A stretch of 64,000 nucleotides of DNA from Gordonia sp. B21 (lineage in GTDB: Bacteria; Actinomycetota; Actinomycetes; Mycobacteriales; Mycobacteriaceae), in assembly GCF_039939235.1 (NCBI RefSeq), contig NZ_JBDUUF010000012.1:83774-147773 (forward strand), read 5' to 3'. A program made the translations under genes and the position numbers. Below, piece after piece: positions 45,978 to 60,375 of the stretch. Numbering within the stretch: the stretch's first letter is position 1; every line of letters begins with the position of its first letter. Below the pieces are notes generated by a model. That model did no database searches, had not been told where the DNA came from, and saw only the letters and a list, made by a program, of their open reading frames with translations.

Positions 45978-47077
45978 CCACCGCCGACACCGCGGTCGCG
46001 GCGAAGTTGTCGATGCTCGACCGATTCCTGCCGGTGTGGATCGGCGCAGCAATGGTCGCCGGCCTGCTGCTGGGCCGCAACGTTCCCGGCCTGGGAGACG
46101 CCCTGGCGGCCGTGGAGATCGACGGTATCTCGCTGCCGATCGCTCTCGGACTGCTGATCATGATGTATCCGGTGCTGGCGAAGGTGCGCTACGACCGACT
46201 CGACTCGGTCACCGGCGATCGTCGCCTGCTGCTGGGATCGCTGCTGCTGAACTGGATCGTCGGACCCGTGTTGATGTTCGCGCTGGCCTGGCTTTTGCTC
46301 CCCGACCTACCGGAGTACCGGACCGGGCTGATCATCGTCGGTCTGGCGCGCTGTATCGCGATGGTCATCATCTGGAACGACCTGGCGTGCGGCGACCGTG
46401 AAGCCGCTGCCGTCCTCGTCGCACTGAACTCGGTGTTCCAGGTGATCATGTTCGCCGTGCTGGGCTGGTTCTACCTCTCGGTGCTACCCGGATGGCTCGG
46501 CCTGGAACAGACGACCATCGACACCTCGCCGTGGCAGATCGCGAAGTCGGTGCTGATCTTCCTCGGAATCCCGCTGGTTGCCGGCTATCTCACCCGCCGC
46601 ATCGGTGAACGGGCCAGAGGCCGCGAATGGTACGAGTCCTCGTTCCTCCCGCGATTGGGGCCGTGGGCCCTCTACGGTCTGCTGTTCACCATCGTCATCC
46701 TGTTCGCCTTGCAGGGGGAGCAGATCACCTCTCACCCGTGGGACGTCGTGCGGATCGCGCTGCCGCTGCTGATCTACTTCGCGGTGATGTGGGGTGGCGG
46801 ATTCGTCCTCGGCGCCGTGATGGGGCTGGGTTACGCACGGACCACCACGCTGGCGTTCACCGCTGCCGGCAACAACTTCGAGCTCGCCATCGCCGTTGCG
46901 ATCGCGACCTATGGTGCGACCTCCGGTCAGGCTCTTGCCGGAGTCATCGGCCCACTCATCGAGGTGCCCGTCCTCGTCGCGCTGGTCTATGTGTCTCTGG
47001 CGTTGCGGAAACGCTTCACCAGTCCGACGACCGCCTCCAGCCCAGATGTGTCGAAGGAGCCTGTTCGCGATGTCTGA
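45974..47077 (+). CDS. acr3: arsenite efflux transporter, ACR3 family
   Basis: About 10 TM, RFLPVWIGAAMVAGLLLG...LIMMYPVLAKV... ACR3 pattern; its GTG overlaps the arsR stop (GTGA). Confidence 0.9.
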   Translation: MTTADTAVAAKLSMLDRFLPVWIGAAMVAGLLLGRNVPGLGDALAAVEIDGISLPIALGLLIMMYPVLAKVRYDRLDSVTGDRRLLLGSLLLNWIVGPVLMFALAWLLLPDLPEYRTGLIIVGLARCIAMVIIWNDLACGDREAAAVLVALNSVFQVIMFAVLGWFYLSVLPGWLGLEQTTIDTSPWQIAKSVLIFLGIPLVAGYLTRRIGERARGREWYESSFLPRLGPWALYGLLFTIVILFALQGEQITSHPWDVVRIALPLLIYFAVMWGGGFVLGAVMGLGYARTTTLAFTAAGNNFELAIAVAIATYGATSGQALAGVIGPLIEVPVLVALVYVSLALRKRFTSPTTASSPDVSKEPVRDV

Positions 47078-47753
47078 GAATGTGTTGGACGAACAGCTGA
47101 GTCGCGGCGAACACCGCGCCCAACCCGAGCTGCTGATGCCGCATACCGTGCTCGCCCGTACCGCAGCTGACTTGGCCGCCAAGTACGAAGGGGTGGTGTC
47201 TCGACAGACGGTAGAACGCTGTGTCTTCGAGTCCTACACCGCGTTACGGCGCACCTCCCGGGTGCATACGCATCTGACGACCTTGGCGGGCCGGTTCGCT
47301 GCCGATCGGTTACGCGCCCTCGCCCAGGCTGAGGGGGCGGTACCCAAGGATGTGCCCGAAGTCCTGTTCATCTGCCTCCAGAACGCCGGCCGCTCGCAGA
47401 TGGCTGCCGGATTGATGACCCACCACGCCACAGGTCGGGTACATGTGCGCTCGGCCGGATTGGTGCCGGCTCATTCGATCAACCCGACCGTCGTCGAAGC
47501 GATGTCAGAAATTGGCGTCGACCTGGGTACCGAGTACCCCAAACCACTCACCGACGATGTGGTCGCCGCCGCTGACGTGGTCGTAGCGATGGGCTGCGGC
47601 GACGCGTGCCCGATCTATCCCGGCAAGCGGTATCTCGATTGGACGGTCTCCGATCCTGAAGGCCGTCCACTTGGCGAGGTTCGCGCGATCCACGATGACC
47701 TTGACGCCCGGGTTCGCGAGCTCCTTGCCGAGCTCACGGCCAACCATCTGTGA
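47070..47753 (+). CDS. arsC: arsenate reductase, LMW-PTP family, with a ~110-aa N-terminal extension domain
   Basis: C-terminal LMW-PTP fold LFICLQNAGRSQMAAG...GCGDACP. The N-terminal 110 aa have no motif I recognise. GAAGGAG SD; the start overlaps the ACR3 stop. Confidence 0.8.
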   Translation: MSENVLDEQLSRGEHRAQPELLMPHTVLARTAADLAAKYEGVVSRQTVERCVFESYTALRRTSRVHTHLTTLAGRFAADRLRALAQAEGAVPKDVPEVLFICLQNAGRSQMAAGLMTHHATGRVHVRSAGLVPAHSINPTVVEAMSEIGVDLGTEYPKPLTDDVVAAADVVVAMGCGDACPIYPGKRYLDWTVSDPEGRPLGEVRAIHDDLDARVRELLAELTANHL

Positions 47754-47794
47754 CTTTCCGAGCATTCCTCCACAGCTGAAAGGGACTGTGTCTC

Positions 47795-48220
47795 ATGTCT
47801 TCCTCTCGACCTAGCGTGCTGTTCGTGTGCGTCCACAATGCCGGCCGCTCACAGATGGCCGCGGGGTTCCTCACCGCGCTCAGCCAGGGCAGTGTCGAGG
47901 TCCGCTCCGCCGGATCTGCGCCCGCCGACTCAATCAATCCAGCCGCGGTCGAGGCGATGGCTGAAGTCGGTATCGACATCTCGGCACAGTCACCCAAGGT
48001 CCTCACCCCCGACACCGTCGAATCCTCCGATGTGGTGATCACCATGGGCTGTGGCGATGCATGCCCAGTATTCCCCGGCGTCAGCTACCGCGACTGGGCC
48101 CTCGACGACCCCGCCGGCCAAGGCATCGACGCGGTCCGCCCGATCCGCGATCAGATCCGCGCACTGGTCGCGGACCTCCTCGACGAACTGCTCCCCGCTA
48201 ACCAGCAGGTCGGCCAGTGA
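47795..48220 (+). CDS. arsC: arsenate reductase, LMW-PTP family (mycothiol/mycoredoxin-coupled type)
   Basis: VLFVCVHNAGRSQMAAGF (CX5R P-loop), GCGDACP; 141 aa. Confidence 0.85.
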   Translation: MSSSRPSVLFVCVHNAGRSQMAAGFLTALSQGSVEVRSAGSAPADSINPAAVEAMAEVGIDISAQSPKVLTPDTVESSDVVITMGCGDACPVFPGVSYRDWALDDPAGQGIDAVRPIRDQIRALVADLLDELLPANQQVGQ

Positions 48221-48627
48221 GCACACCACCGCAGGTGCTGTTCGTGTGCGTGTCCAACCGCGGCAAATCGGTGATGGCCGAACACCTCACACCGACAGTC
48301 ACCGACCGGATCACCCCGTCCTCGGCCGGCACCAGCGCGAAAATCGGCGGCCAGGTCAACGACCTGTCCGCCCAGGCGCTCGCCGAAGTCGGCGCCACCG
48401 TGGACGGGCATCAGCCGCGGCAACTCACCGACGAACTGATGCAAACTGCAGATCTCGTCGTGGTGGTCGGCACCGCCGACGTCACCCCACCCGACGGCGT
48501 CGCCCTCGAAGTGTGGAACACCGACGAACCCTCCGAACGGGGCATCGACGGTATCGAACGGATGCGACTAATCCGCGACGACATCACCAACCGGATCCGC
48601 GCCCTCGCCGACCGCATCGCGCGGTAG
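48217..48627 (+). CDS. LMW-PTP-like arsenate reductase paralog with an atypical P-loop (CVSNRGKS)
   Basis: VLFVCVSNRGKSVMAE... same fold; its GTG overlaps the preceding stop (GTGA). Confidence 0.7.
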   Translation: MSTPPQVLFVCVSNRGKSVMAEHLTPTVTDRITPSSAGTSAKIGGQVNDLSAQALAEVGATVDGHQPRQLTDELMQTADLVVVVGTADVTPPDGVALEVWNTDEPSERGIDGIERMRLIRDDITNRIRALADRIAR

Positions 48628-48650
48628 GCGAGAGCGCAAGCCACGACCCC

Positions 48651-49136
48651 TCAGCAGCAAGCAGTGCGCACCTCAGCCGGTTCGGCGGCGCTGCCACCGC
48701 AGCACACCGAACCCTGCTCGACGTCATCGTTGGCGTTCTGCTCCAACAGTTTCGGGCTGGTCCCGAACGTGTCGGAGTCGGCGAGCACGGTGTAGACCTC
48801 CCACTTCTCGTTCGCCGGTCCGGTCACCCAGACCTTGTCCTGCGTTGCGAAACAGCAGGTGGAGTTGATCTCCTCCTGGGTGAACAGGCCCTCCCCGGAC
48901 AGCCTGGCGATCTCGGCGTGCACCTTCTCGCTCGATTCGACCTCGACGCCGAGGTGGTTGATCGTGCCGCCCTGGCCGGGGTTCTCTAGCAGCACCAGTT
49001 TCAGGGGCGGCTCGACGATCGCGAAGTTGGCGTATCCCGGCTTGCGTTTGGCCGGGGTGGTGTTGAACAGCTTGGAGTAGAACTCGATCGCGGTATCGAG
49101 ATCATCGACGTTGAGCGCGAGCTGCATACGGGACAT
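48651..49136 (-). CDS. VOC/glyoxalase-family protein, ArsI/CadI-like (candidate C-As lyase or metal-binding protein)
   Basis: VOC fold with a vicinal Cys pair (STCCFATQD) and a Cys-rich C-terminus (VCCGG...TACC). Start at ATG 49136, GAAGGTG 6 nt upstream. Confidence 0.65.
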   Translation of the reverse strand: MSRMQLALNVDDLDTAIEFYSKLFNTTPAKRKPGYANFAIVEPPLKLVLLENPGQGGTINHLGVEVESSEKVHAEIARLSGEGLFTQEEINSTCCFATQDKVWVTGPANEKWEVYTVLADSDTFGTSPKLLEQNANDDVEQGSVCCGGSAAEPAEVRTACC

Positions 49137-49200
49137 GACCATCACCTTCACCTGTGAGACATATATCGAACTACTGACACATGCAGGGTGCCACCTTTTC

Positions 49201-49210
49201 GACATATGTC
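49201..49210. promoter_or_regulatory. candidate operator, perfect 10-bp palindrome GACATATGTC in the divergent arsI-like/arsR2 intergenic region (a related GAGACATATATCGA half-site lies upstream)
   Basis: Palindrome read directly from the sequence. Confidence 0.4.
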
Positions 49211-49233
49211 AAGTAGGGGCGTACGATCTGGTC

Positions 49234-49596
49234 ATGCCGAAGCCCTTGCCGATGGTCGACATCAGCGCCCCGATCTGCTGCGCACCGGTATCCGCGGCTC
49301 CGCTCGATGACGACACCGCCCTAGAAATCGCTCTGCGACTCAAGGCCCTGGCCGATCCCGTTCGGATCAAACTCGTCTCAATCCTGCTTACCGACACCGG
49401 TGACGGGACCTGCACCTGCGACCTCGCGACCGCGGTCGGCCTCACCGAAGCCACCACCAGTCACCACCTGGGGCAGCTCCGCAAAGCCGGCATGGTCACC
49501 CCCGAGCGCCGCGGCATGAACGTCTACTACCGAGCGCAACCGGACTCGTTGGAAGCACTACGCAACGTTCTCAGCGCTACGACGGGTTGCTGTTGA
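49234..49596 (+). CDS. arsR: ArsR/SmtB-family metalloid sensor with N-terminal Cys pair and C-terminal Cys pair
   Basis: APICCAPV (N-terminal CC), TCTCDL helix-3 Cys, C-terminal TGCC, HTH ATTSHHLGQLRKAGMV. Start re-placed at ATG 49234. Confidence 0.8.
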   Translation: MPKPLPMVDISAPICCAPVSAAPLDDDTALEIALRLKALADPVRIKLVSILLTDTGDGTCTCDLATAVGLTEATTSHHLGQLRKAGMVTPERRGMNVYYRAQPDSLEALRNVLSATTGCC

Positions 49597-49617
49597 ACGG
49601 CGACGGCACGAACTGAG

Positions 49618-50169
49618 CGAGCCTTATCCGGGTGTCCTTTTGGCAGGCCAACTCCGGTGTCTTTCAGCAGGTCAGCGAGCATGGCGAGCAATCCAGCTCG
49701 GCTGGTGGCGGGCAGATCGGATCGGTGATCACGGCGTGGCCGGCGCCAGCGAGGGCGGTGATGCGGGCGGCGACGCTGACCGCGTGCCCGAACAGGTCTC
49801 CGTCGCGGACGACTGCGCTGCCGTAGTGGATCGATCCCGGCGCGTAGGGCGATGAATCCGTCTTGACCGGCGGCCGCGGCCGCGGGGGCGGTGATCGTGG
49901 CGAGGATCACTTGGGGGGCGTCGGCGGTGAGCATCACCGCATCGCCGATGGCCTTGACCAGCCGCGTGCCCGGTCATAGAGCCTGCCTGCCAGGTCTGAG
50001 AGGCCAACCGTATGGCCAGTTCTGCGGCTTCCTGGTCGCCGCAGAACTCGGTGAACACGCTGTATCCGGCGAGGTCGACGAACGCCACCGCGACGTCACG
50101 CTGCTCGAGCTCGGCGAGCTCGTCCGAGGGAGGGCCATGGTGATGCCCGTGCAGTGGTGGCGTGGTCAT
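49618..50169 (-). pseudogene. class III nucleotidyl-cyclase-like single-domain gene with Cys-rich tail, disrupted by at least two frameshifts
   Basis: Frame 1 VAVAFVDLAGYSVFTEF; frame 2 ...GDAVMLTADAP...; frame 3 ...APGSIHYGSAVVRDGDLFGHAVSVAARITALAGAGHAVITDPICPPPAELDCSPCSLTC*. These are successive cyclase motifs in three different frames. Its ATG overlaps the methyltransferase stop (ATGA). Confidence 0.45.
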
Positions 50170-50762
50170 CGGTCACCGGCACGGCGGGCACGGAACCGGG
50201 CGAGCGCAGGGTTCTCGCGGACCGTGATGTCGGTCAGAGGCAAAGACGTCAGGCGCAGGCGGAGTTCGCCACGGGGGATGAACCGGTGCGGTGCCCCTTC
50301 GAGGTTGTGCAGCAGCCGCGCCGGTGCGCTGCCGAGCAGGTCGTAGCCGACCAGCATTCCGCCGGGCGCGAGCACTCGGGCGGCCTCGGCGAGTGCGCGT
50401 TCCCAGTCGATGACGTGGTGCAACATGATGAACGAGACGACGGTGTCGAAGCTTCCGTCCTCGAACGGCAGGGCTGTGGCGTCGGCGACCTGGGCGTGAG
50501 CGCGGGCCCCGAAACCCTGCAGCCGATCGCTGGCGGCGGCGACCATGACCGGGTCGAAGTCGGTGACGGTCACATCCACGAGTTCGTCGGGGTTGGTGGT
50601 GAGGATCTGCTCGGTCATCGCGCCGGCGCCGCCACCGATTTCAAGGACCCGGCCTCGGGGATGGATGCCTTGCAGCGCCCACGGGAGTACCCACCTGCCG
50701 GTGGCCGCCTGCCACGGTGCGCTGCGGCAGAACAGAGACTCGATCGTCGACATCGACGGCAT
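50166..50762 (-). CDS. class I SAM-dependent methyltransferase
   Basis: Motif I VLEIGGGAGAMT and motif post-I VTDFD. Start set at ATG 50762 with GGGAGC upstream. Confidence 0.7.
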   Translation of the reverse strand: MPSMSTIESLFCRSAPWQAATGRWVLPWALQGIHPRGRVLEIGGGAGAMTEQILTTNPDELVDVTVTDFDPVMVAAASDRLQGFGARAHAQVADATALPFEDGSFDTVVSFIMLHHVIDWERALAEAARVLAPGGMLVGYDLLGSAPARLLHNLEGAPHRFIPRGELRLRLTSLPLTDITVRENPALARFRARRAGDR

Positions 50763-50843
50763 ACCAACAGCTCCCACCTCTCGCCCGGCCGCGCCTGCTG
50801 CCACTTCTTCGTGATGATTCGATTACAGCACACAATGCCGCTA

Positions 50844-50863
50844 TCATCGTCATATGACGATGA
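50844..50863. promoter_or_regulatory. candidate CmtR/ArsR-SmtB operator, perfect 20-bp palindrome TCATCGTCATATGACGATGA straddling the regulator's ATG
   Basis: Palindrome read directly; it is centred on CAT|ATG at 50853/50854. Confidence 0.5.
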
Positions 50864-51255
50864 ATGAGTGCTCGGTGGCGACTGGGGCGGACCTCGATCC
50901 CGCGGTGGCGTTGTTCCACAGCCTCTCCGATGGGACCCGTCTGGCAATCGCAACCCGCCTCGCGCACGGTGGCGAGGCCCGGGTGGCGGATCTGATGGCG
51001 GAGCTGGGGTTGGCGCAATCGACGGTCTCCGCGCACGTGGCGTGCTTACGGGACTGTGGGCTCGTCGAAGGCCGCCCGCAGGGGCGGCAGGTGTTCTACA
51101 GCCTGGCCCGACCGGAGCTGATGGACGTGCTCGCCGCCGCCGAAACCCTCCTGGCAGCGACCGGAAACGCGGTTGTGTTGTGCCCGAACTACGGCACCGA
51201 CGCCACCACCTCCTGCTGCACAACGGGCGACACGAAGGCGGGGGTGCGGCGATGA
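50854..51255 (+). CDS. ArsR/SmtB-family Cd/Pb-type sensor, CmtR-like
   Basis: Cys in VACLRDCGL (CmtR C57/C61-like) plus C-terminal Cys (LCPNYG...SCCTT); HTH. Confidence 0.8.
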   Translation: MTMNECSVATGADLDPAVALFHSLSDGTRLAIATRLAHGGEARVADLMAELGLAQSTVSAHVACLRDCGLVEGRPQGRQVFYSLARPELMDVLAAAETLLAATGNAVVLCPNYGTDATTSCCTTGDTKAGVRR

Positions 51256-53252
51256 GCGACGCATGCGGATGCGGGCACGACGAACCGGCCAGTGAGGACG
51301 AGCAGGCTCCGGAGCACTGGTGGCAGGTGCGGGAGCTGCAGGCTGCCGCCGCGGCCGCGGTGTTCCTGCTCGCCGCGTACATCACCAGCTGGTCCGGCGG
51401 CCCCGAACCGGTCGCGCTCGCCCTGGAGTGGGTGGCGCTGCTGATCGGGGCGTGGACATTCGTCCCCTCGACCCTGAGCCGGTTGGCGAAGGGCAAAATT
51501 GGCGTCGGCACCCTGATGACGATTGCTGCGGTCGGCGCGGTGATCCTCGGCGAGGTCGGCGAAGCCGCGATGCTCGCTGTGCTGTTCTCCATCAGCGAAG
51601 GCCTTGAGGAGTACGCCGTCGCCCGCACCCGCCGCGGGCTGCGGGCGCTACTAAATCTGGTCCCGGACTCCGCGACCGTGCTCCGCGACGGCACCCCGGT
51701 CACCGTCTCCCCGGCGGAATTGGCCGTCGGGGACCAGATGTTGGTCAAACCCGGCGAGCGGATCGCCACCGACGGCACCATCACCGAAGGCCGCACCGCA
51801 CTGGATGTTTCGGCGATCACCGGCGAATCCGTGCCTGTCGAAGCCGGACCCGGCACGCAGGTCTACGCCGGGTCGATCAACAGCACCGGCGCCCTGAGCG
51901 TGCATGTCACCAGCACGGCGGAGAACAACTCGCTGGCCAAGATCGTGCAGATCGTCGAGGCCGAACAGTCCCGCAAGGGCGACGCGCAACGCCTCGCCGA
52001 CCGGATCGCCAAGCCCCTGGTACCGGCGATCATGATCTTCGCCGCCGCCATTGCGATCCTCGGCTCCCTGCTCGGTGACCCGGCCACGTGGATCGAACGG
52101 GCCCTGGTCGTGCTCGTCGCCGCGTCGCCGTGTGCGCTGGCGATCTCTGTGCCGGTGACCGTGGTCGCGGCGATCGGCGCCGCCAGCAAGATCGGCGTCC
52201 TGGTCAAAGGAGGTGCCGCCCTCGAAGCCCTCGGCCGGGTCCGCACCGTCGCCCTCGACAAGACCGGCACTCTGACCGCGAACCGGCCCACCGTCGTCGA
52301 CATCGCCACCACCCCCACCGACACCGCTGCTCCTAGCACCGGGAGCAGCCTGGGCGACCGCACTCCGGGCCAGGAGCGGGTGCTCGCCGTCGCCGCGGCG
52401 CTGGAAGCGCACAGCGAACACCCGCTCGCCCGCGCGATCCTCGCCGCCCACGGCGAGACCACCGCCGCGCGCGATGTGCAGGCTGTTCCCGGGGCCGGCC
52501 TGACCGGCCTCGTCGACGGACGGCCCGCGCGGCTGGGCCGTCCCGACTGGATCGAGCCCGGCCCGCTCGATGAGCGGGTCGCGGCCATGCAGGCCGACGG
52601 CGCCACCGCCGTCCTGATCGAACACGACGGTCAGGTCATCGGCGCGGTCGCCGTCCGTGACGAGCTTCGCCCCGAAGCCGGCGCGGTAATCGAGCACCTG
52701 CACCGCATCGGCGCCACGGTCGCGATGCTCACCGGCGACAACACCGCCACCGCCAACGCGCTGGCGAAGATCGCCGGCATCGACGACGTACACGCCGACC
52801 TCCGCCCCGAAGACAAGGCCCGCATCATCGGCGACCTCCGAACGAACTCGTTCACCGCGATGGTCGGCGACGGCATCAACGACGCTCCCGCCCTGGCCAC
52901 CGCCGACCTCGGCATCGCCATGGGCGCAATGGGATCGGACGTAGCGATCGAAACCGCCGACGTCGCCCTCATGGGCGAAGACCTCCGCACCCTCCCGCAG
53001 GCACTCGATCACGCCCGCCGCGCCCGGAAGATCATGCTGCAGAACGTCGGCCTGTCCCTCGCCCTGATCGCGATCCTCATCCCTCTCGCGCTGTTCGGGA
53101 TACTCGGCCTCGCCGCCGTCGTCGCCGTCCACGAACTCGCCGAGATCGTCGTCATCGCCAACGGAGTCCGCGCCGGCCGGGTCAAAGCGCTAGCCCGGGC
53201 GAGGACCGGAACTGGCCAGCGGACTCCGTCCGTAGTGACGGTCGGGCAGTGA
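51252..53252 (+). CDS. heavy-metal P1B-type ATPase, SPC-motif (P1B-4-like; Co/Ni/Cd/Zn class)
   Basis: N-terminal CGCGHDE, TM6 SPC (ASPCALAISVP), DKTGTLT, HP (SEHPLA), GDGINDAP; 666 aa. Its ATG overlaps the regulator stop (ATGA). Confidence 0.9.
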   Translation: MSDACGCGHDEPASEDEQAPEHWWQVRELQAAAAAAVFLLAAYITSWSGGPEPVALALEWVALLIGAWTFVPSTLSRLAKGKIGVGTLMTIAAVGAVILGEVGEAAMLAVLFSISEGLEEYAVARTRRGLRALLNLVPDSATVLRDGTPVTVSPAELAVGDQMLVKPGERIATDGTITEGRTALDVSAITGESVPVEAGPGTQVYAGSINSTGALSVHVTSTAENNSLAKIVQIVEAEQSRKGDAQRLADRIAKPLVPAIMIFAAAIAILGSLLGDPATWIERALVVLVAASPCALAISVPVTVVAAIGAASKIGVLVKGGAALEALGRVRTVALDKTGTLTANRPTVVDIATTPTDTAAPSTGSSLGDRTPGQERVLAVAAALEAHSEHPLARAILAAHGETTAARDVQAVPGAGLTGLVDGRPARLGRPDWIEPGPLDERVAAMQADGATAVLIEHDGQVIGAVAVRDELRPEAGAVIEHLHRIGATVAMLTGDNTATANALAKIAGIDDVHADLRPEDKARIIGDLRTNSFTAMVGDGINDAPALATADLGIAMGAMGSDVAIETADVALMGEDLRTLPQALDHARRARKIMLQNVGLSLALIAILIPLALFGILGLAAVVAVHELAEIVVIANGVRAGRVKALARARTGTGQRTPSVVTVGQ

Positions 53253-53764
53253 TCACCGCGGTTCCGGTGGCGCACCGCCGCGTACGCCTCACACGGCGGT
53301 GCGGGCTGCTGGCCGTCGCTGTCGGACTCGCGGCCACCGATCTGGCCGTCAAGGCATGGGCCACAAGCGCGCTCGCGGACGGCGCAGTCATCGGAACGGG
53401 GCCGGTGCAGCTGCGGCTGGCATTCAATCCGGGCGCGGCGTTTTCGATCGCCGCCGATGCCCCGGCATGGGTGCTGCCCACAGTCACCGGAATCATCACC
53501 TTCATCGTCGCGGTCACCTCCTGGCGGATGGCGCCAGGCACCGGGCACCTCGGGCGGCTGGGGTTAGCAGCGATCCTCGGCGGGGCAAGCGCCAATCTCA
53601 TCGATCGGTTCCCCGACGGAGTGGTCACTGACTATCTCCACACCGGTTGGTGGCCAACGTTCAACCTCGCTGACACATTCATCGTCGGCGGCGCTGCCAT
53701 CTTGATCACCCTCACCGCATTCAGGAGTCCCGACGAACGAGCGCAGCATTCACCCGAGCGCTGA
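53249..53764 (+). CDS. lspA: lipoprotein signal peptidase II
   Basis: FNLADTFI (FNxAD), 4 TM; its GTG overlaps the ATPase stop (GTGA). Confidence 0.85.
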   Translation: MITAVPVAHRRVRLTRRCGLLAVAVGLAATDLAVKAWATSALADGAVIGTGPVQLRLAFNPGAAFSIAADAPAWVLPTVTGIITFIVAVTSWRMAPGTGHLGRLGLAAILGGASANLIDRFPDGVVTDYLHTGWWPTFNLADTFIVGGAAILITLTAFRSPDERAQHSPER

Positions 53765-53823
53765 CCCCCCGTTACCTTCTTCGTGGCCCCGCGGTGCGGG
53801 ACTACGAAGAAGGTAACGGGGGG
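53765..53823. terminator. long perfect inverted repeat / stem-loop (20-bp arms CCCCCCGTTACCTTCTTCGT ... ACGAAGAAGGTAACGGGGGG, 19-nt spacer) immediately after lspA
   Basis: Read directly. It could be an intrinsic terminator or the boundary repeat of a cassette. Confidence 0.5.
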
Positions 53824-53960: not shown

Positions 53961-54470
53961 CTACCGGGAGGGGCCGTTGTGATCTCGTTGCCGATGGGGA
54001 TCACGGCGGTCTGTTGCAGCACCTGGTGCCGGTCGTGCTCCGGCCACTGGCGAGGTGCGTGCGATTCCCCGCGAGGCGACTGCTGCGGCACGTTGTGCCG
54101 GGGTCATGGGTTGCCGGGCGCCGGGGAGGCCGTCGAACTGTGCGGCGGGGACGTGCAGTTGAGCTTCCGCTTGGTTCTTCTCTGCCGCGTACGCGGCGGC
54201 GCGACTTTCCTCAATGCGTTGCGCCGCGACGCGGTACTCCTCGCGGGAGTTGAGGCCGGCTTCCTCGACTGTGTAGTTGGTCGGGTTCCACTGCAGCGAC
54301 CAGCCGGGTTGACGGCCGGCGACTTTGAGTCGTTCGGCTGCGGCTGCACGCGCAGCCTGCGCTTCGGGTGTGCTCGCTTCGGCGGCGATAGCCGACTTGA
54401 TCTGTTCGAGCTCGACTCGCTTGTCGCGTAGTTCGCGGATCTGGACCGAGACCGCCAGCGGTGCCACCAC
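53961..54470 (-). CDS. hypothetical protein (169 aa) occupying the DNA that replaced the 5' end of the resolvase gene
   Basis: Plausible codon usage (GC3 lower than core genes); coiled-coil-like segment ELEQIKSAIAAEAS...RIEESRAAAYAAEKNQAEAQ. No motif. It overlaps the artefactual N-extension of the res ORF. Confidence 0.3.
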   Translation of the reverse strand: MVAPLAVSVQIRELRDKRVELEQIKSAIAAEASTPEAQAARAAAAERLKVAGRQPGWSLQWNPTNYTVEEAGLNSREEYRVAAQRIEESRAAAYAAEKNQAEAQLHVPAAQFDGLPGARQPMTPAQRAAAVASRGIARTSPVAGARPAPGAATDRRDPHRQRDHNGPSR

Positions 54471-54894
54471 TGCCCGGCCGCAACTCGATGACCTGTTCTC
54501 TCACCTTCGGCCTGGGGACACCCTGGTGGTGTGGCGACTCGATCGACTCGGCCGCTCACTGCCACATCTGCTTCAGGTCGTCACCGACCTCGAAGAGCGC
54601 GGCATCGGCTTCCGGTCGGTGACCGAATCGATCGACACCACCACCGCCGGCGGCAAGCTGATCTTCTCCATCTTCGGCGCGCTCGCCGAGTTCGAACGCA
54701 ACCTCATCCGCGAACGCACCTCGGCCGGCCTCGCCGCAGCCCGGGCTCGCGGTCGGGTCGGGGGGCGGCCGCCGAAGATGACGCCGAAGAAGATCAAGCA
54801 GGCCAGGTTGATGCGCGACAACGGGATGAGTCAGACCGAAATCGCGGAGATCCTCGGAGTCGGTCGCACGACGCTGTATCGCCATCTGAAGTAG
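54433..54894 (+). pseudogene. serine recombinase (resolvase/invertase family), 5'-truncated, lacking the catalytic Ser region
   Basis: RIWTETASGATTARPQLDDLFSHLRPGDTLVVWRLDRLGRSLPHLL...FGALAEFERNLIRERT...C-terminal HTH SQTEIAEILGVGRTTLYRHL. The first ~45 aa (YARVST...) are absent. Confidence 0.75.
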
Positions 54895-55032
54895 TAGTAC
54901 CGCACCGACATTTTCGAAAGGGTGGCGCCTGTTGTCCTCCACTGACTCACCGAGGCCGACGCGGCCCCGCAGCTGCTACCGCCCTACTCGGTCGGTGTCG
55001 CTGAGTGTCGGGACGCGCCCGGCAGTGCCGGA

Positions 55033-55875
55033 TCACTCGAGGGCGTAGAGATCGTGCGCGGTGGCGGCATAGGCGGTGTCGGCATCGACGGCCAGCAACG
55101 CTTCGACCGGACCGACCACGGCCTTCTGTTCCCATGTTCGGCCGGTGTGGCTGCGCCAGGCGACACCCTCAGTGTCGACACCCCACAGGGAGCCGTCACC
55201 GGCGGCGGAGAGCAACACCAGCGTGGGGGCTTCGGGAACGGCGGTGAAGGTCCGGGCACCGTCGGTGCTGTGCTGCAACCCGTCGGCGGTGGCCGCCCAG
55301 ACACCATCGTCGGTAACGGCCAGGGCTGCGGCGGCCAGCGGGGCTCCGGCGCTCCAGGTGGCGCCAGCGTCGGTGGAGACCAACAGCCCGGTGGTCCCGT
55401 CGAAACCGACGAGCACCGTCCCGTCGGTGGCCAGAGCGTGGAAATCCACTTCTCCGGCAAGGGATTTCGGGGTCCAGGTGCGACCACCATCGGTACTGTC
55501 GATCAATCCGAGCGGGTTCGGTGCCGAACTCGATGGTCCGGGATGCCCGGAGGCGAAGAGCCGATCGGTGCCGGGCACCCCGGTCAGTCCCATGAAGTCG
55601 TCGTCGGAGGTGCCGACCCGGCTGGTGTGCCCGTCAATGCCGAGGGTGACCAGGCCGGTGTGGGTGCCGGCCAGGATCGTGCCGTCGGCACCGAGGTGCA
55701 GCCCGTGCAGGTGATCGAGGGCAGGGGTCAATGCCACCGCGGGCACCTCCGCGGTCGGGACAGACCCCGATCGGGTCGGTGTCGTACCGGGCTGCTGGGT
55801 CGAGCATCCGACGAGCACGGTCAGGGCAGCGGCGACGAGCACACCCCGGCAGGGGCGCGCGAACGATATCCACAT
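55033..55875 (-). CDS. lipoprotein with BNR/Asp-box repeats (Ycf48/sortilin-like beta-propeller)
   Basis: Lipobox LVGC|ST. Four SxDxGxTW-type boxes (DGGRTW, DAGATW, DGARTF, TGRTW). Start re-placed at ATG 55875. Confidence 0.65.
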   Translation of the reverse strand: MWISFARPCRGVLVAAALTVLVGCSTQQPGTTPTRSGSVPTAEVPAVALTPALDHLHGLHLGADGTILAGTHTGLVTLGIDGHTSRVGTSDDDFMGLTGVPGTDRLFASGHPGPSSSAPNPLGLIDSTDGGRTWTPKSLAGEVDFHALATDGTVLVGFDGTTGLLVSTDAGATWSAGAPLAAAALAVTDDGVWAATADGLQHSTDGARTFTAVPEAPTLVLLSAAGDGSLWGVDTEGVAWRSHTGRTWEQKAVVGPVEALLAVDADTAYAATAHDLYALE

Positions 55876-55916
55876 GGACGCAGAAGAACTTTCTCTCTGG
55901 GGCAGGGCCACGCAGG

Positions 55917-58079
55917 TCAGGTGCGGGCCAGGTGGGCGGGGTCGAGGTCGAGGCGGCGCAACAGTTGTGCATTGAGGGCAACGACGATGGTCGAAACCGA
56001 CATGAGCACCGCGGCCACCGCCGGGGAGATCGCCACCCCGGCGAAGGCGAGCACACCGGCGGCCAGGGGCACGGCGATGATGTTGTAGCCGGTCGCCCAC
56101 ACCAGGTTCTGCCACATCTTCCGGTAACTGGAGTGGGAGAGTTCGATGATCGACAGCACCGCCCGCGGATCGTTCGCCGCCAGCACCACCCCGGCGGATT
56201 CGATCGCCACATCGGTGCCGGCACCGATGGCCACTCCCACATCCGCCCGAGCCAGGGCCGGGGCGTCGTTCACGCCGTCGCCGACCATGGCGACCTTGTG
56301 CCCGCGTTGCTGCAGTTCGGTGACCTTCGCGTCCTTGTGCTCGGGCAGCACTTCGGCGAAGACCTCGTCGATGCCGAGATCGGCGGCCACCGCGTCGGCG
56401 ACCTGCCGGGCATCACCGGTGATCATCGCGACCTTGACTCCGCGGGCGTGCAGGGCGTCGATCGCCTGGCGGGACTCCTCACGGACCGCGTCCTCGAGCG
56501 CCACGGCACCGAGCACCCGATCACCTTCGGCGATGTGCAGCACCGACGCTCCGCGCTGCACCCACTGTTCGGTGACGGCGGTGACCTCGGCCGGTACCGA
56601 CAACGACAGGTCGGTCAGCATCGCGGGTCCGCCGACGGTGACCTCGGTGCCGTCGACGACCGCGCGCACGCCACGGCCGGGCAGCGATCGGAAGTCGGTG
56701 GCGGTGATCTTCTCGCCCGTCGGGACACTGGTGCCCGCCGCGGCCACGATCGCGTGCGCGACGGGATGTTCGCTGTCGGCTTCGACTGCGGCGGCGCGGG
56801 CCAGCAGATACGATTCGCTGATTCCGTGGGCGGTCGTGACGCCGGTGACCTGGTGCCGGCCCTGGGTGAGGGTGCCGGTCTTGTCGAACAGGACCACCTC
56901 GACGGTGCGCATGCGTTCGAGGGCGAGACGGTCCTTCACCAGCACACCGGCCTTGGCGGCGCGTTCGGTGGAGATCGCGATCACCAGCGGGATCGCCAAC
57001 CCCAGGGCGTGGGGACACGCGATGACCAACACGGTGACCGTGCGCACCACCGCTTCGTCGACGTTGCCGAGCAACGCCCACACCACGAAGGTGAGCAGAC
57101 CGCTGATCGCGGCGAAGTAGAACAAGAACGCCGCGGCCTTGTCCGCCAACGCCTGCGCCCGCGACGAGGACGCCTGAGCGTCGGCGACCATGCGTTGGAT
57201 ACCGGCCAGGGCAGTGTTCTCACCGACGGCGGTGATCCGCACGCGCAGGGCGCTGTCGGTGGCGACGGTACCGGCGACCACCGTGTCGCCGCTTCCGCGG
57301 GTGACGGTCTTCGATTCGCCAGTGATCATCGATTCGTCGACCTCGGCGCGGCCGGCGACGACGGTGCCGTCCGCGGGCACCCGGGCCCCGGCCCGCACGA
57401 GCACCACGTCGTCGAGGGCCAACTCCGACAACGGCACCTCCTCGGTGCCGTCGTCGGTGACCTTCTCGGCGGTGTCGGGCAGCATCGCCGCCAACGCGTC
57501 GAGGGCTCCCGAGGCCGAGCCGAGGGCGCGCATCTCGAGCCAGTGCCCGAGCAGCATGATCACGATCAGCAGCGCCAGTTCCCACCAGAAGTCCAGGTCG
57601 AAACCGCCGAGGCCGAGGGTGGTGATCCACGAGGCGGCGAAGGCGACGCTGATGGCCATCGCGATCAGCAGCATCATTCCCGGTCGGCGCGAGCGCAGTT
57701 CGGCCCAGCCTCCGGTGAGGAACGGCATGCCGCCGTAGACGAAGATCACCGTGCCCAGCACCGGCGGGATCCACATGGCGCCGGGGAAGTCCGGCATGGG
57801 GTAGCCGAGCAACTCGGCAACCATGTGGCTGAATCCCACGACCGGGATCGACAGGATCAGCGACACCCAGAAACGCCGTCGGAACATCTCTCCGTGCGTG
57901 CCGTGCCCACCATGATCGCCGTGGCCGGCATGAGGGTCCGACCCGACATGCGCGAGATGCTCGCCGTATCCGGCGTGCGCATCGTGCGGCTGCGGGGGCG
58001 GGCTCTGTACGTCGGCGCTGTGCTCGTGCCCGGTGGGCGCCTGAGCCGGGCGGGTGTGTCCGTGCTCCGGGTGCGACAT
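55917..58079 (-). CDS. copB: copper P1B-3-type ATPase (CopB-like): His-rich N-terminus, CPH motif
   Basis: N-terminal HPEHGHTRP...HEHSAD...HAGHGDHGGHGTHG; TM6 CPHALGLAIP; DKTGTLT; GDGVNDAP. Strong SD AGGAGG. Confidence 0.9.
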   Translation of the reverse strand: MSHPEHGHTRPAQAPTGHEHSADVQSPPPQPHDAHAGYGEHLAHVGSDPHAGHGDHGGHGTHGEMFRRRFWVSLILSIPVVGFSHMVAELLGYPMPDFPGAMWIPPVLGTVIFVYGGMPFLTGGWAELRSRRPGMMLLIAMAISVAFAASWITTLGLGGFDLDFWWELALLIVIMLLGHWLEMRALGSASGALDALAAMLPDTAEKVTDDGTEEVPLSELALDDVVLVRAGARVPADGTVVAGRAEVDESMITGESKTVTRGSGDTVVAGTVATDSALRVRITAVGENTALAGIQRMVADAQASSSRAQALADKAAAFLFYFAAISGLLTFVVWALLGNVDEAVVRTVTVLVIACPHALGLAIPLVIAISTERAAKAGVLVKDRLALERMRTVEVVLFDKTGTLTQGRHQVTGVTTAHGISESYLLARAAAVEADSEHPVAHAIVAAAGTSVPTGEKITATDFRSLPGRGVRAVVDGTEVTVGGPAMLTDLSLSVPAEVTAVTEQWVQRGASVLHIAEGDRVLGAVALEDAVREESRQAIDALHARGVKVAMITGDARQVADAVAADLGIDEVFAEVLPEHKDAKVTELQQRGHKVAMVGDGVNDAPALARADVGVAIGAGTDVAIESAGVVLAANDPRAVLSIIELSHSSYRKMWQNLVWATGYNIIAVPLAAGVLAFAGVAISPAVAAVLMSVSTIVVALNAQLLRRLDLDPAHLART

Positions 58080-58130
58080 CGAAAGCCTCCTGGGTGGCGG
58101 GCCGAGAGGAACCGGCCGGGGGTCGGCCGG

Positions 58131-58766
58131 TTACAGGGTGGTCAGCAGCTGGCGCATGGTGTCGATTTCCTGCTGCTGGGTATCGACGATGGTGCGGGCC
58201 ATCGCCACCGCGTCGGGGAACTGCCCGTCCTCGATCTCGGTCTGCGCCATGTCGACGGCGCCTTCGTGGTGGGCGATCATCTGCTCGAGGAACAGGCGGG
58301 CCGCGTCGGTGCCCTGCGCATCCGCCAACGCTTGCATGTCTTCCTCGCTCATCATCCCCTCCATCTCGGCCATACCGCCGTCCATGCCGGGCATGTCGTG
58401 GTCGCTCTCGGGCATCTTGGTGGGTTCGCCCCACTGGTCGAGCCAGCTCTCGAGTTGGTCGATCTCCGGGCCCTGGGCGGTCTTGATCTGCTCGGCCAGG
58501 GCGGTGACCTCGGCGGGGATGTTGTCCTTGGCCAGGAGCATGTCGCTCATCTCGATGGCCTGGCTGTGGTGCGGGAGCATCATCTGCGCGAACATCACAT
58601 CGGCGTCGTTGTGGGCTGTGGCCTGTTCGGCGGGTGTGCCCGCCGAGGCCGGCGCGGTCGAGGTCGCGACCGTGGTGCCGGTGTCGGAGTCGGAATCGCT
58701 GCACGCGGTTGCAGCGAATACCACGGCCAGGGCTGTGGCGCCGACGGCGAGGGTCTTCTTGTTCAT
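58131..58766 (-). CDS. DUF305-family lipoprotein (copper-resistance-associated, ferritin-like)
   Basis: Lipobox AATAC|SD. Duplicated HH motifs (MMLPHHSQAI, MIAHHEGAVDMA). Confidence 0.8.
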   Translation of the reverse strand: MNKKTLAVGATALAVVFAATACSDSDSDTGTTVATSTAPASAGTPAEQATAHNDADVMFAQMMLPHHSQAIEMSDMLLAKDNIPAEVTALAEQIKTAQGPEIDQLESWLDQWGEPTKMPESDHDMPGMDGGMAEMEGMMSEEDMQALADAQGTDAARLFLEQMIAHHEGAVDMAQTEIEDGQFPDAVAMARTIVDTQQQEIDTMRQLLTTL

Positions 58767-58842
58767 CAAGGGGTGTTCCTTTCTCGGACAAGCACAGGCA
58801 TCGTGATGGCGCAGCTCGGCACCGCCGGACGGCGGGCCCGGG

Positions 58843-60375
58843 TCACGCCAGGTAGGACACGGTCGTCATCATTCCGGCCTCCTGGTGATAAGCGTTGTGA
58901 CAGTGCAGTGCCCATTGGCCGGGGTTGTCGGTGTCGAATTCGATCTCGACGGTGCGCATCGGCCCGATGGTGACGGTGTCCTTGCGCAGACCGGTGTCGG
59001 TGAGCGCGAAAGTGTGTCCGTGCAGGTGCATCGGGTGGAACATGTCCGACATGTTGCGCATCCGCATGCGCACCCGCTGTCCCTCGTTGACGTTCAGCGG
59101 CGCGCTGTTCGGGTGGGCGCGGCCGTTGAGGGTCCAGCGGTACGGCGACATCGTCCCGCCCATATCCACACTGTGATACAGATCGTGATCACGCTCGGCC
59201 AGACGCACATACTCCCGGGGCGCAAGATCGGTGCCGAGCAGCACCCGCCGATCCAGCTCGTCGGGGCGAGGCTGGATCGGCAGTTCGCCGGAGGCGGTGC
59301 GCACCACCGCCTGTCCGTACCCGGTCTTGCCCTCGGCCTGAGCGAACAGCGGGAACACCCCGTCGCTGAGGGTAACCAGCACGTCGAATCGCTCGCCCAT
59401 GCCGATCAGCAGTGCGTCGGTGTCCTGCGGTACCACCGGGAACCCGTCGGTGTGGGTGACCGTCATCCGGTGACCGCCCAACGCGACCCGGAAGGCGGTG
59501 TCGGCGGCGGCGTTGACGAACCGGATCCGTGCCCGCTGTCCGGGTGCGGCGGTCAAGACCATCGGATCATCCGGCACGCGCCCGCCGACCAGAAAGTGGG
59601 GATAGCTCACGTCCCCGGCACCGCCGAGGAGCGGTGAGAGCATCGTTTCCTCACCCATGTCCATACCGCCCATGTCCATGGCGCCGTGATCCATCCCGCC
59701 CATTCCGGTGCCGATGCCGAGCTCGCGGGCCACGTCGTCGGGGGTACGTCCGGTGCCGTCGAGCCAATCGTCGAGCACCACGATCCACTCGTGCTCGTAG
59801 TCGCCCGGCTCGGCCGGATCATCGACGATCAGCGCGCCGTAGAGCCCGCGGTCGAGTTGCAGACCCGAATGCGAGTGATAGAAGTACGTGCCCGCATGAG
59901 GGACGGTGAACTCGTAGACGAACCTGTCTCCGGCAGCGATCGGGTCCTGCGTCAGCCCCGGCACCCCGTCCATATCGTTGCTCAACGCCAGCCCGTGCCA
60001 GTGCACACTCGTCTCCACCGGCAGCTGGTTGTCCACCTCCACCCGCAGCAGATCCCCGGCGCGGGCGCGGAGCAGTGGCCCCGGCACCTGGTCGTCATAG
60101 GACCAGGTAGACACGATGCGGCCGCCCAGGTCCACCTCGACCGGACGCGGTGTCAACCGGGCCGAGGCCACCTGCTGGCCCGGGGAGCGGCGCTGCTGTT
60201 CGAGACGACGCACCGCCGGTGACGTGGCGGTCACCGGGACGCCGGTCGCGGCTCCCGACGCGGAACAGGAGGCGAGAACCCCAGCACCGGTGAGGATCGA
60301 GCCGATCAGAAAGGCCCGGCGGGGAACCCTAACCACGGGCCTGCTCCTGCTGCTCACCGGTCGAGGCGGCGCCAC
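58843..60375 (-). CDS. multicopper oxidase, TAT-signal lipoprotein (MmcO-like)
   Basis: TAT RRAFLIG + lipobox LASC|SAS. Cu ligands HWHG, HSH, HPMHLHGH, HCHNAYHQEAGMM. The start is ambiguous (GTG 60375 vs GTG 60336). Confidence 0.9.
   Translation of the reverse strand: MAPPRPVSSRSRPVVRVPRRAFLIGSILTGAGVLASCSASGAATGVPVTATSPAVRRLEQQRRSPGQQVASARLTPRPVEVDLGGRIVSTWSYDDQVPGPLLRARAGDLLRVEVDNQLPVETSVHWHGLALSNDMDGVPGLTQDPIAAGDRFVYEFTVPHAGTYFYHSHSGLQLDRGLYGALIVDDPAEPGDYEHEWIVVLDDWLDGTGRTPDDVARELGIGTGMGGMDHGAMDMGGMDMGEETMLSPLLGGAGDVSYPHFLVGGRVPDDPMVLTAAPGQRARIRFVNAAADTAFRVALGGHRMTVTHTDGFPVVPQDTDALLIGMGERFDVLVTLSDGVFPLFAQAEGKTGYGQAVVRTASGELPIQPRPDELDRRVLLGTDLAPREYVRLAERDHDLYHSVDMGGTMSPYRWTLNGRAHPNSAPLNVNEGQRVRMRMRNMSDMFHPMHLHGHTFALTDTGLRKDTVTIGPMRTVEIEFDTDNPGQWALHCHNAYHQEAGMMTTVSYLA

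What the first reader, a model, noticed from the sequence alone, without database searches (positions are those of the whole stretch)
49600..50804. Frameshifted nucleotidyl-cyclase-like gene with a Cys-rich tail, co-transcribed with a SAM methyltransferase inside the arsenic module
Successive class III cyclase motifs appear in three different minus-strand frames between 50169 and 49618: FVDLAGYSVFTEF → GDAVML → GSIHYGSAVVRDGDLFGHAVSVAARI, ending in a CPPPAELDCSPCSLTC tail. The gene's ATG overlaps the stop of the upstream methyltransferase. Either a metal-linked signalling enzyme has recently decayed here, or the window has indel errors in this stretch. A cyclase with a thiol-rich tail in an ars island would be an unusual sensor/effector.
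Basis: seen in the sequence. Interest (0 to 1): 0.6.

Follow-up and report, generated by a model that had tools for sequence, protein, structure and literature searches.

The report
Decayed metal-sensing adenylyl cyclase gene remnant
This is the dead, truncated remnant of a known type of metal-sensing adenylyl cyclase gene, left next to an intact methyltransferase gene where a cadmium/lead/zinc-type efflux module was joined to an arsenic resistance module; it is an ordinary pseudogene.

Summary
Cyclase motifs lie in three minus-strand frames between 50169 and about 49700, and the ATG overlaps the methyltransferase stop (ATGA).

It is a pseudogene of the AC-YHS family: a class IIIc adenylyl cyclase with a C-terminal YHS metal-binding domain. 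The M. phlei member is Cu2+-activated (Linder 2015).

Compared with intact orthologs (234-260 aa, Tsukamurella and Gordonia alkanivorans), the window carries:
- two 4-bp tandem duplications (about 49980-49990 and 49829-49836)
- a 1-bp deletion (49716/49715)
- loss of homology at 49682/49681, about codon 161, which removes the YHS domain and the downstream cadD
- a private TGA at 49976
- an N129S change at the transition-state Asn

Five other Gordonia records from three species share the indels and the truncation, so these are not sequencing errors.

The "Cys-rich tail" is a wrong-frame reading created by the 1-bp deletion. The family's real thiol module, the YHS domain, is deleted.

The gene belongs to the neighbouring CmtR-like ArsR/P1B-ATPase module, not to the ars module. 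Intact orthologs always lie in MT-(PEMT)-AC-YHS-(CadD) operons near that module. A conserved 20-bp palindrome sits at the ArsR gene start, with a second copy upstream of the MT operon where the two are separated.

Interest is low. The operator-linked metal-efflux context of AC-YHS is a modest by-product.

The parts
49682..50169 (-). Pseudogene remnant of an AC-YHS adenylyl cyclase. It corresponds to codons 1 to about 161 of orthologs that are 234-260 aa long.
   Evidence: tblastn gives three collinear segments in three frames, E = 3e-59. DNA alignments to intact orthologs. The repaired translation scores 25.2 bits on PF00211 against a gathering score of 21.9.
49980..49990 (-). First frameshift: a 4-bp insertion, a tandem duplication within GGCAGGCAGGC. 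Exact placement is ambiguous within this stretch.
   Evidence: A 4-column gap in all four intact orthologs. The insertion is shared by five other Gordonia records.
49974..49976 (-). In-frame TGA in the ancestral reading frame, private to the window. All five related Gordonia records have CGA here.
   Evidence: position 49976: T on the minus strand in the window, C in the others.
49829..49836 (-). Second frameshift: a 4-bp tandem duplication, GATCGATC where orthologs have a single GATC or AATC.
   Evidence: Shared by five other Gordonia records.
49715..49716 (-). Third frameshift: a 1-bp deletion (GATCCTG becomes GATCTG). It creates the wrong-frame 'Cys-rich tail'.
   Evidence: The ancestral frame reads LPATSRAGLLA against ortholog LPATTRAGLTA.
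49597..49681 (.). Junction spacer. Homology to AC-YHS genes ends at 49682/49681. About 85 bp of sequence follows that is found only in this composite module, up to the stop of the convergent Rv2640c-type arsR.
   Evidence: alignment breaks down. (only the two G. amicalis plasmids match)., H20 (homology to the KTR9 plasmid ends at about 49601).
50166..50762 (-). Intact class I SAM-dependent methyltransferase (198 aa). Its stop overlaps the cyclase ATG.
   Evidence: Pfam Methyltransf_11, 82.7 bits. 84-85% identical to the Tsukamurella and G. alkanivorans partners. dN/dS 0.25.
50844..50863 (.). Perfect 20-bp palindrome TCATCGTCAT|ATGACGATGA centred on the start codon of the ArsR-family gene. It is the inferred operator shared by the two divergent operons.
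   Evidence: One search finds one copy in 15 of the 18 loci that match and two copies in L002, L013 and L015. The arsR-start position was checked in 9 loci and the window (and coordinates). In L002 and L013 the two operons are split and the second copy lies upstream of MT. The second L015 copy is unexplained.
50854..51255 (+). ArsR/SmtB metalloregulator. The closest named model is the Cd/Pb sensor CmtR, but the score is below the equivalog cut-off.
   Evidence: NCBIfam HTH_metalloreg 84.8 bits (cut-off 55). CmtR model 60.3 bits (cut-off 150).
51252..53252 (+). Heavy-metal P1B-type ATPase of the Cd/Zn/Pb type.
   Evidence: TIGR01525, 567.8 bits; TIGR01512 (cadmium family), 501.7 bits.
53249..53764 (+). 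Signal peptidase II (LspA), the last gene of the ATPase operon.
   Evidence: Pfam Peptidase_A8, 94 bits.
49234..49596 (+). Rv2640c-family ArsR. This is the last gene of the ars/CadI block, which abuts the truncated cyclase.
   Evidence: NCBIfam NF041413, 197.1 bits (cut-off 155). Annotation in pCP86.

Best explanation
Window 50169 to about 49682 (minus strand) is a non-functional pseudogene of an AC-YHS enzyme: a small class IIIc adenylyl cyclase whose C-terminal YHS domain senses a transition metal.

In intact relatives the gene is the second gene, or the third where a PEMT gene intervenes, of an operon: SAM methyltransferase, sometimes a PEMT-type methyltransferase, AC-YHS, often CadD. The operon lies divergent from, or close to, a CmtR-like ArsR regulator, a P1B heavy-metal ATPase and often LspA. 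A conserved palindromic operator is shared between the two units.

In the lineage carried by this window, a rearrangement fused this module to an ars/CadI cluster. The rearrangement cut the cyclase at about codon 161 and removed the YHS domain and cadD. The remnant also carries two 4-bp tandem duplications and a 1-bp deletion. In this window alone it has a further nonsense codon. The transition-state Asn is replaced by Ser.

The only product that can be made is a 146-aa chimera, with about 58 native residues followed by out-of-frame sequence. It lacks the second metal Asp and the Lys, Asp, Asn and Arg of the active site, so it cannot make cAMP. The methyltransferase and the efflux genes remain intact.

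Shown: homology, the lesions, their presence in independent genomes, and the conserved context. Inferred: the order of events, regulation through the palindrome, and which metal was sensed.
For: - Intact orthologs. Tsukamurella tyrosinosolvens plasmids carry proteins of 234 and 260 aa and G. alkanivorans one of 242 aa, all annotated as adenylate/guanylate cyclase domain proteins.
- Domains. PF00211 scores 32.2 and 28.4 bits in the two Tsukamurella proteins. The 234-aa one also has a YHS match (26.2 bits). YHS is precomputed for most of the listed homologs.
- Lesions. tblastn finds three collinear out-of-frame segments. The DNA alignment places indels of +4, +4 and -1 and a loss of homology at 49682.
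- Independent copies. [quoted passage not shown] Only four variable positions occur across 1.4 kb.
- Conserved residues. In a 27-sequence alignment the two metal Asp, Lys71, Asp122 and Arg133 are invariant. The window alone has N129S and T72A (26 of 26 others differ) and L39F (25 of 26).
- Known family. MpAC is 233 aa, class IIIc, has all six catalytic residues, and is switched on by 1-10 uM Cu2+ through the YHS domain (PMC4626032). Hits P0009 and P0011 share its length and its D178/W201/W202 numbering.
- Closest solved structure. Rv1264, E = 1.8e-25.
- Context. All eight distinct intact or near-intact loci examined carry ArsR and a P1B ATPase alongside MT-(PEMT)-AC-YHS-(CadD).
- Operator. The palindrome is conserved, and is duplicated where the operons are split.
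Against: - No transcript or protein data are available, so loss of function is inferred from sequence only.
- dN/dS of the remnant against intact orthologs (0.30-0.42) is barely above intact-to-intact values (0.24-0.38). There is no strong signature of long neutral drift. This fits recent inactivation but does not prove it.
- PLSDB tables omit pseudogenes, so I could not see whether RefSeq already flags the region.
- The operator role of the palindrome is untested. A single occurrence in the window is not significant on its own (24 of 100 shuffles give at least one match when one mismatch is allowed). The case rests on positional conservation across loci.
Confidence: 0.93

Rival explanations
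1. The frameshifts are sequencing or assembly indel errors in this window, and the gene is really intact.
For: Three indels within 300 bp of GC-rich DNA could suggest poor consensus quality. The window does have one private 1-bp indel nearby, at 50778/50779.
Against: The same +4, +4 and -1 lesions and the same 3' truncation occur in five other records from three species, produced by different projects. Two of the lesions are 4-bp tandem duplications, which is not a typical homopolymer error. Even after repair the ORF lacks the last 70-100 codons of its orthologs, including the YHS domain.
Confidence: 0.01
2. Programmed ribosomal frameshifting or recoding reads through the shifts and yields a functional short cyclase.
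For: The ATGA translational coupling to the methyltransferase is retained. Cyclase motifs remain recognisable in all the segments.
Against: Reading through would need three separate shifts of different sign plus read-through of a TGA. The shift sites are simple tandem duplications (CAGGCAGG, GATCGATC), not slippery heptamers. The catalytic Asn is mutated. Orthologs encode the protein in a single frame.
Confidence: 0.01
3. The remnant is retained because it still does something that is not catalysis. Examples: the 146-aa chimeric ORF (50169-49729) supports translation or mRNA stability of the upstream methyltransferase, or the RNA serves as its 3' UTR or terminator region.
For: The remnant is 100% conserved, apart from one base, across six records from at least three species. 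The start-stop overlap with the methyltransferase is intact.
Against: The whole 1.4-kb stretch is equally conserved (99.7-99.8%), consistent with recent horizontal spread of one 8.2-kb block rather than selection. No terminator-like site is found in 49500-50900. Neither of the two longest remnant ORFs (50169-49729 and 49937-49527) matches any Pfam family.
Confidence: 0.05

Closest known systems
AC-YHS adenylyl cyclases, e.g. Mycobacterium phlei MpAC (GenBank EID14989.1; Linder 2015, PLoS One 10:e0141843, PMC4626032)
   Same: The repaired cyclase domain has the class IIIc layout and is 61% identical to P0009 and P0011. These two hits are 233 aa long and place the first YHS ligand Asp at residue 178 and the WWFCS motif at residue 201, matching MpAC's published length and its D178, W201 and W202. 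The metal Asp pair, the Lys and Asp specificity pair and the Arg are the same. Orthologs of the window gene carry the same C-terminal YHS domain with D/C/C/C ligands.
   Different: The window copy is frameshifted three times, has a stop codon and N129S, and has lost the YHS domain entirely. The Gordonia/Tsukamurella clade also has an N-terminal HGHHHG extension that mycobacterial members lack. I did not verify sequence identity to MpAC itself.
Rv1264 pH-sensing adenylyl cyclase of M. tuberculosis (PDB 1y10/1y11). Also the Rv1900c/LipJ and Ma1120 cyclase domains.
   Same: Rv1264 is the closest solved catalytic domain, E = 1.8e-25 over residues 23-181 of the intact Gordonia ortholog. The only NCBIfam hit is the LipJ cyclase domain, far below its cut-off.
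   Different: The regulatory domains differ: an N-terminal pH sensor or a lipase domain rather than a C-terminal YHS domain. The genomic context also differs.
CmtR/CadC-type ArsR repressor with P1B Cd/Pb/Zn ATPase cassettes (e.g. M. tuberculosis cmtR-Rv1993c-ctpG; from general knowledge)
   Same: An ArsR/SmtB regulator gene immediately upstream of, and overlapping, a P1B ATPase gene, with a palindromic site at its own start.
   Different: The regulator scores 60 bits on the CmtR equivalog model (cut-off 150), so it is not a confirmed CmtR. The divergent MT-AC-YHS-CadD operon is not part of the cmtR-Rv1993c-ctpG cassette as I recall it (general knowledge, not checked here).

Membership tests
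Class III nucleotidyl cyclase (Pfam PF00211 cyclase homology domain) | Sequence passes the curated domain model | tested here: met
   Met only after in-silico removal of the three indels: 25.2 bits against a gathering score of 21.9. The two actual ORFs give no Pfam hit. Intact orthologs score 32.2 and 28.4 bits.
Class III nucleotidyl cyclase (active enzyme) | Six canonical catalytic residues: two metal Asp, substrate Lys and Asp, transition-state Asn and Arg | tested here: not met
   The repaired translation keeps D32, D75, K71, D122 and R133 but has Ser at position 129, where 26 of 26 relatives have Asn. These residues are spread over three reading frames.
Class III nucleotidyl cyclase (active enzyme) | Uninterrupted open reading frame across the catalytic domain | tested here: not met
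   Indels of +4, +4 and -1 plus a TGA at 49976.
AC-YHS adenylyl cyclases (Linder 2015) | C-terminal YHS domain with Asp plus three Cys ligands, joined to the cyclase domain by a short linker | tested here: not met
   Homology ends at about codon 161 (49682). No YHS-coding sequence is found anywhere in the 64-kb window. The domain is present in orthologs.
AC-YHS adenylyl cyclases (Linder 2015) | Descent from the family: orthology of the remaining part | tested here: met
   79-93% amino-acid identity per segment to the Tsukamurella and G. alkanivorans AC-YHS proteins. The MT partner, with its ATGA overlap, and the ArsR/ATPase neighbours are the same.
AC-YHS adenylyl cyclases (Linder 2015) | Metal-stimulated (Cu2+) cAMP synthesis | not testable with these tools
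   This is a biochemical property, shown only for M. phlei MpAC. It is not expected here given the lesions.
CmtR (Cd/Pb-sensing ArsR/SmtB repressor), for the neighbouring regulator at 50854-51255 | Passes the NCBIfam equivalog model NF047906 | tested here: not met
   60.3 bits against a cut-off of 150. It does pass the general ArsR/SmtB subfamily model, 84.8 bits against 55.

The most novel reading that the evidence does not exclude
In Mycobacteriales, AC-YHS cyclases may be integral, operator-linked members of a Cd/Pb/Zn-type efflux regulon: MT-(PEMT)-AC-YHS-(CadD), sharing a TCATCG-N8-CGATGA operator with a CmtR-like ArsR/P1B-ATPase operon. They would then couple toxic-metal exposure to cAMP signalling, possibly sensing Cd, Pb or Zn rather than, or as well as, copper. 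The published assay did not include Cd2+ or Pb2+. The Gordonia composite module shows that this signalling arm can be lost while efflux and the methyltransferase are kept. This concerns the intact relatives; the window holds only the wreck.
Probability: 0.3. Interest if true: 0.45.

Novelty: already known. Interest (0 to 1): 0.2.

Why it matters
For the window itself it matters little. This is a dead gene in a widely disseminated metal-resistance block, and the enzyme family is already described.

It corrects three likely annotation errors:
- The Cys-rich tail is not real.
- The gene does not belong to the ars module.
- The indels are genuine, not sequencing errors.

The by-product has some value. 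The only biochemical paper on AC-YHS cyclases leaves their physiological role open. The conserved genomic context found here gives a concrete, testable hypothesis for that role: a SAM methyltransferase, CadD, a CmtR-like regulator, a P1B ATPase and a shared palindromic site.

Tried and rejected
- Pfam on the raw ORFs 50169-49729 and 49937-49527 gave no hits. Only the repaired translation hits PF00211.
- The sigma-70 promoter and intrinsic terminator scan of 49500-50900 found nothing.
- dN/dS (Nei-Gojobori, own script) did not separate the remnant clearly from intact orthologs, so it cannot date the inactivation.
- A search for the origin of the 85-bp junction spacer (49597-49681) found only the two G. 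amicalis plasmids.
- The cluster look-up did not return an M. phlei-named member, so MpAC could not be tied to a specific hit. The link rests on matching length and residue numbering.
- Literature searches for CmtR plus adenylate cyclase plus methyltransferase, and for YHS plus adenylate cyclase plus cadmium, found nothing relevant.
- The pCP86 genome paper mentions only arsenic resistance.
- Structure prediction was not run. The family has a close solved relative and biochemical characterisation, so it would not change the verdict.

Full report
**1. The observation**

- MTTPPLHGHHHGPPSDELAELEQRDVAVAFVDLAGYSVFTEFCGDQEAAELAIRLASQ... is in the frame of the ATG at 50169.
- ...PGTRLVKAIGDAVMLTADAPQVILATITAPAAAAAGQDGFIALRAGI is in a second frame.
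- IHYGSAVVRDGDLFGHAVSVAARITALAGAGHAVITDPICPPPAELDCSPCSLTC* is in a third.

The ATG at 50169-50167 overlaps the TGA at 50168-50166 of the upstream ORF.

That ORF is a class I SAM-dependent methyltransferase (Methyltransf_11, 82.7 bits). Its real start is the ATG at 50762 (MPSMSTIES...), as in the orthologs and in RefSeq, not the GTG at 50804.

The two actual ORFs in the cyclase stretch hit no Pfam model. A translation spliced across the frames passes PF00211 (25.2 bits against a gathering score of 21.9).

**2. Intact orthologs and the exact lesions**

The stretch 49400-51300 is 99.8% identical to two Gordonia amicalis plasmids. It is 79-86% identical to two Tsukamurella tyrosinosolvens plasmids, where an intact 'adenylate/guanylate cyclase domain-containing protein' follows the methyltransferase (annotations).

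The Tsukamurella proteins are 234 and 260 aa. They have a cyclase domain (PF00211, 32.2 and 28.4 bits) followed by a C-terminal D-P-V/I-C ... W-W-F-C-S-x-x-C module. In the 234-aa protein this module matches the YHS domain (26.2 bits).

tblastn of these proteins against the window gives three collinear segments in three frames (E = 3e-59).

DNA alignment against four intact genes locates the lesions:
- a 4-bp insertion within GGCAGGCAGGC (49980-49990)
- a 4-bp duplication, GATCGATC (49829-49836)
- a 1-bp deletion between 49716 and 49715
- complete loss of homology after 49682, corresponding to about codon 161

The YHS domain and the downstream cadD gene are therefore gone.

After the 1-bp deletion the ancestral frame reads LPATSRAGLLA, where orthologs have LPATTRAGLTA or LPAATRAGVPT. 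The 'Cys-rich tail' CPPPAELDCSPCSLTC is the same DNA read in the wrong frame. No other AC-YHS copy or YHS-coding stretch exists in the 64-kb window.

**3. Real mutations, not sequencing errors**

A scan of one genome per species found the same truncated gene in G. alkanivorans NBRC 16433, G. amicalis NBRC 100051 and G. polyisoprenivorans NBRC 16320. Together with plasmids pCP86 and pCP89, that makes five independent records.

Over 1.4 kb only four positions vary among these five records and the window, and all share the three indels and the breakpoint. Three differences are private to the window:
- C to T at 49976, which turns CGA into an in-frame TGA
- a synonymous change at 50610 in the methyltransferase
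- a 1-bp deletion at 50778/50779, upstream of the methyltransferase

The fourth variable position, 50884 in the arsR-family gene, splits the records: the window shares its base with L018 and L020.

The block shared with the G. amicalis plasmids spans about 45525-53770 (97.8% identity). The junction therefore predates the spread of an 8.2-kb composite ars plus Cd-type module.

**4. What the ancestral gene was**

A database search with the intact Tsukamurella protein returns 410 proteins with E <= 1e-5. Most are 215-260 aa and carry PF00211 plus PF04945 (YHS). They come from Mycobacteriaceae, Gordonia, Tsukamurella, Williamsia and more distant bacteria.

In a 27-sequence alignment the residues corresponding to the six canonical class III positions are conserved:
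- metal Asp: D32 and D75
- adenine-specifying K71 and D122
- transition-state N129 and R133

The YHS ligands D/C/C/C are conserved as well. It also has Phe at 39 (25 of 26 others have Leu).

This architecture is published. Linder (2015, PMC4626032) showed the following for the 233-aa M. phlei AC-YHS enzyme:
- It is a class IIIc adenylyl cyclase with all six catalytic residues.
- 1-10 uM Cu2+ switches it on through the YHS domain when Mg2+ is the cofactor.
- Zn2+, Fe2+, Fe3+, Cr3+, Co2+ and Ni2+ do not activate it. Cd2+ and Pb2+ are not among the ions listed.
- Its physiological role is open.

Hits P0009 and P0011 share the 233-aa length and place the first YHS ligand Asp at 178 and the WWFCS motif at 201, which matches MpAC's D178, W201 and W202. 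I could not confirm that either one is MpAC. The closest solved catalytic domain is Rv1264 (E = 1.8e-25).

**5. Which module it belongs to**

In every intact or nearly intact locus examined, the cyclase follows the same methyltransferase. The loci are L002, L003, L004, L008 and L013-L017. In mycobacteria a PEMT-family methyltransferase lies between the two genes. The cyclase is often followed by CadD. The operon lies divergent from, or close to, an ArsR/SmtB regulator plus a P1B ATPase, often with LspA.

In the window the regulator (50854-51255) passes the general ArsR/SmtB model but not the CmtR equivalog model (60 bits against 150). The ATPase (51252-53252) fits the Cd/Zn/Pb P1B models.

On the other side of the remnant lie the Rv2640c-type ArsR (49234-49596), ArsI/CadI, three ArsC/LMW-phosphatase genes and ACR3. 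The remnant therefore marks the seam between two modules and belongs to the Cd-type one.

A perfect 20-bp palindrome, TCATCGTCAT|ATGACGATGA (50844-50863), sits on the regulator's start codon.
- The motif TCATCG-N8-CGATGA is found in 18 of the 20 fetched loci. Fifteen have one copy; L002, L013 and L015 have two.
- I confirmed the position at the regulator's start in nine loci and the window (and the coordinates set). The coordinates in the other matching loci look equivalent.
- In L002 and L013 the two operons are separated, and the second copy lies upstream of the methyltransferase operon. The second copy in L015 (11054-11073) was not explained.
- I infer a shared operator. This is not tested.

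**6. Mechanism and state**

Shown: the gene cannot encode a cyclase. The longest product from the ATG is a 146-aa chimera with about 58 native residues.

Inferred history: an ancestral MT-AC-YHS-(CadD) operon was cut at codon 161 when the ars block was joined to it. Slippage-type 4-bp duplications and a 1-bp deletion followed or preceded the cut.

dN/dS of the remnant against intact orthologs (0.30-0.42) is close to intact-to-intact values (0.24-0.38). The methyltransferase shows 0.17-0.26. Most divergence therefore accrued under selection, and the inactivation is comparatively recent, though this test is weak.

**7. Rivals**

- Sequencing error is excluded by the five concordant records.
- Programmed recoding would need three shifts of different sign, TGA read-through and a missing domain, with no slippery sites.
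- A residual non-catalytic role, such as coupling to or stabilising the methyltransferase message, cannot be excluded. It has no support. No terminator-like site is found, and the conservation is explained by recent horizontal spread.

**8. Verdict**

This is an ordinary pseudogene of a known, biochemically characterised enzyme family. The Cys-rich tail, the ars assignment and the claim of unusualness are not. The modestly interesting residue is the conserved, operator-linked association of AC-YHS cyclases with Cd/Pb/Zn-type efflux genes, which suggests a testable physiological role for that family.

Noticed in passing
window 50844-50863; L002 7142-7161 and 8657-8676; L013 3787-3806 and 5302-5321: The 20-bp palindrome TCATCG-N8-CGATGA overlaps the start codon of the CmtR-like arsR gene. 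It is found in 18 of the 20 fetched loci. Where the methyltransferase-cyclase operon is separated from the arsR-ATPase operon, a second copy lies upstream of it. This is probably a shared operator.
   Followed up: partly
L012 (pCP89) 4854-6852; L020 (G. polyisoprenivorans) about 4228; L013 (T. sputi) about 5804; L017 (Williamsia MAG) about 6215-6227; P0003 (G. iterans): Other genes of the same module are also broken in other records. The P1B ATPase is split in pCP89 and in G. polyisoprenivorans. The methyltransferase is split in T. sputi. The cyclase is split in a Williamsia MAG. The YHS region is read out of frame in the G. iterans protein. This is either recurrent decay of the module or draft-assembly errors.
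   Followed up: no
window 50137-50154 (residues 6-11 of the remnant); alignment A2 columns 10-25: Gordonia and Tsukamurella AC-YHS proteins have an N-terminal His-rich extension (HGHHHG) that mycobacterial and more distant members lack. It could be an additional metal-binding site.
   Followed up: no
window 50778/50779: The window has a private 1-bp deletion upstream of the methyltransferase start. All five related Gordonia records have an extra base that creates an in-frame ATG 18 nt upstream of the annotated start.
   Followed up: partly
window 45525-53770 versus 54432-62694: Only an 8.2-kb block (ars genes, the remnant, the methyltransferase, arsR-ATPase-LspA) is shared with the G. amicalis plasmids, at 97.8% identity. 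The sequence downstream instead resembles copper-resistance regions of Rhodococcus plasmids (multicopper oxidase, P-type ATPase, two-component system) at 80-90%. The window is therefore a mosaic of metal-resistance modules.
   Followed up: no
L008 5270-5890; L016 5403-5999: In mycobacterial loci a PEMT/ICMT-family methyltransferase (PF04191) lies between the class I methyltransferase and the AC-YHS gene. One database hit (P0055, 365 aa) carries both PF04191 and PF00211, which suggests a fusion.
   Followed up: no
window 47795-48627: Two consecutive small ORFs of 141 and 136 aa follow the 684-nt ArsC gene. In pCP86 they are annotated as arsenate reductase ArsC and as a low-molecular-weight phosphatase family protein. 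That gives three tandem ArsC/LMW-PTP genes in the ars block.
   Followed up: no
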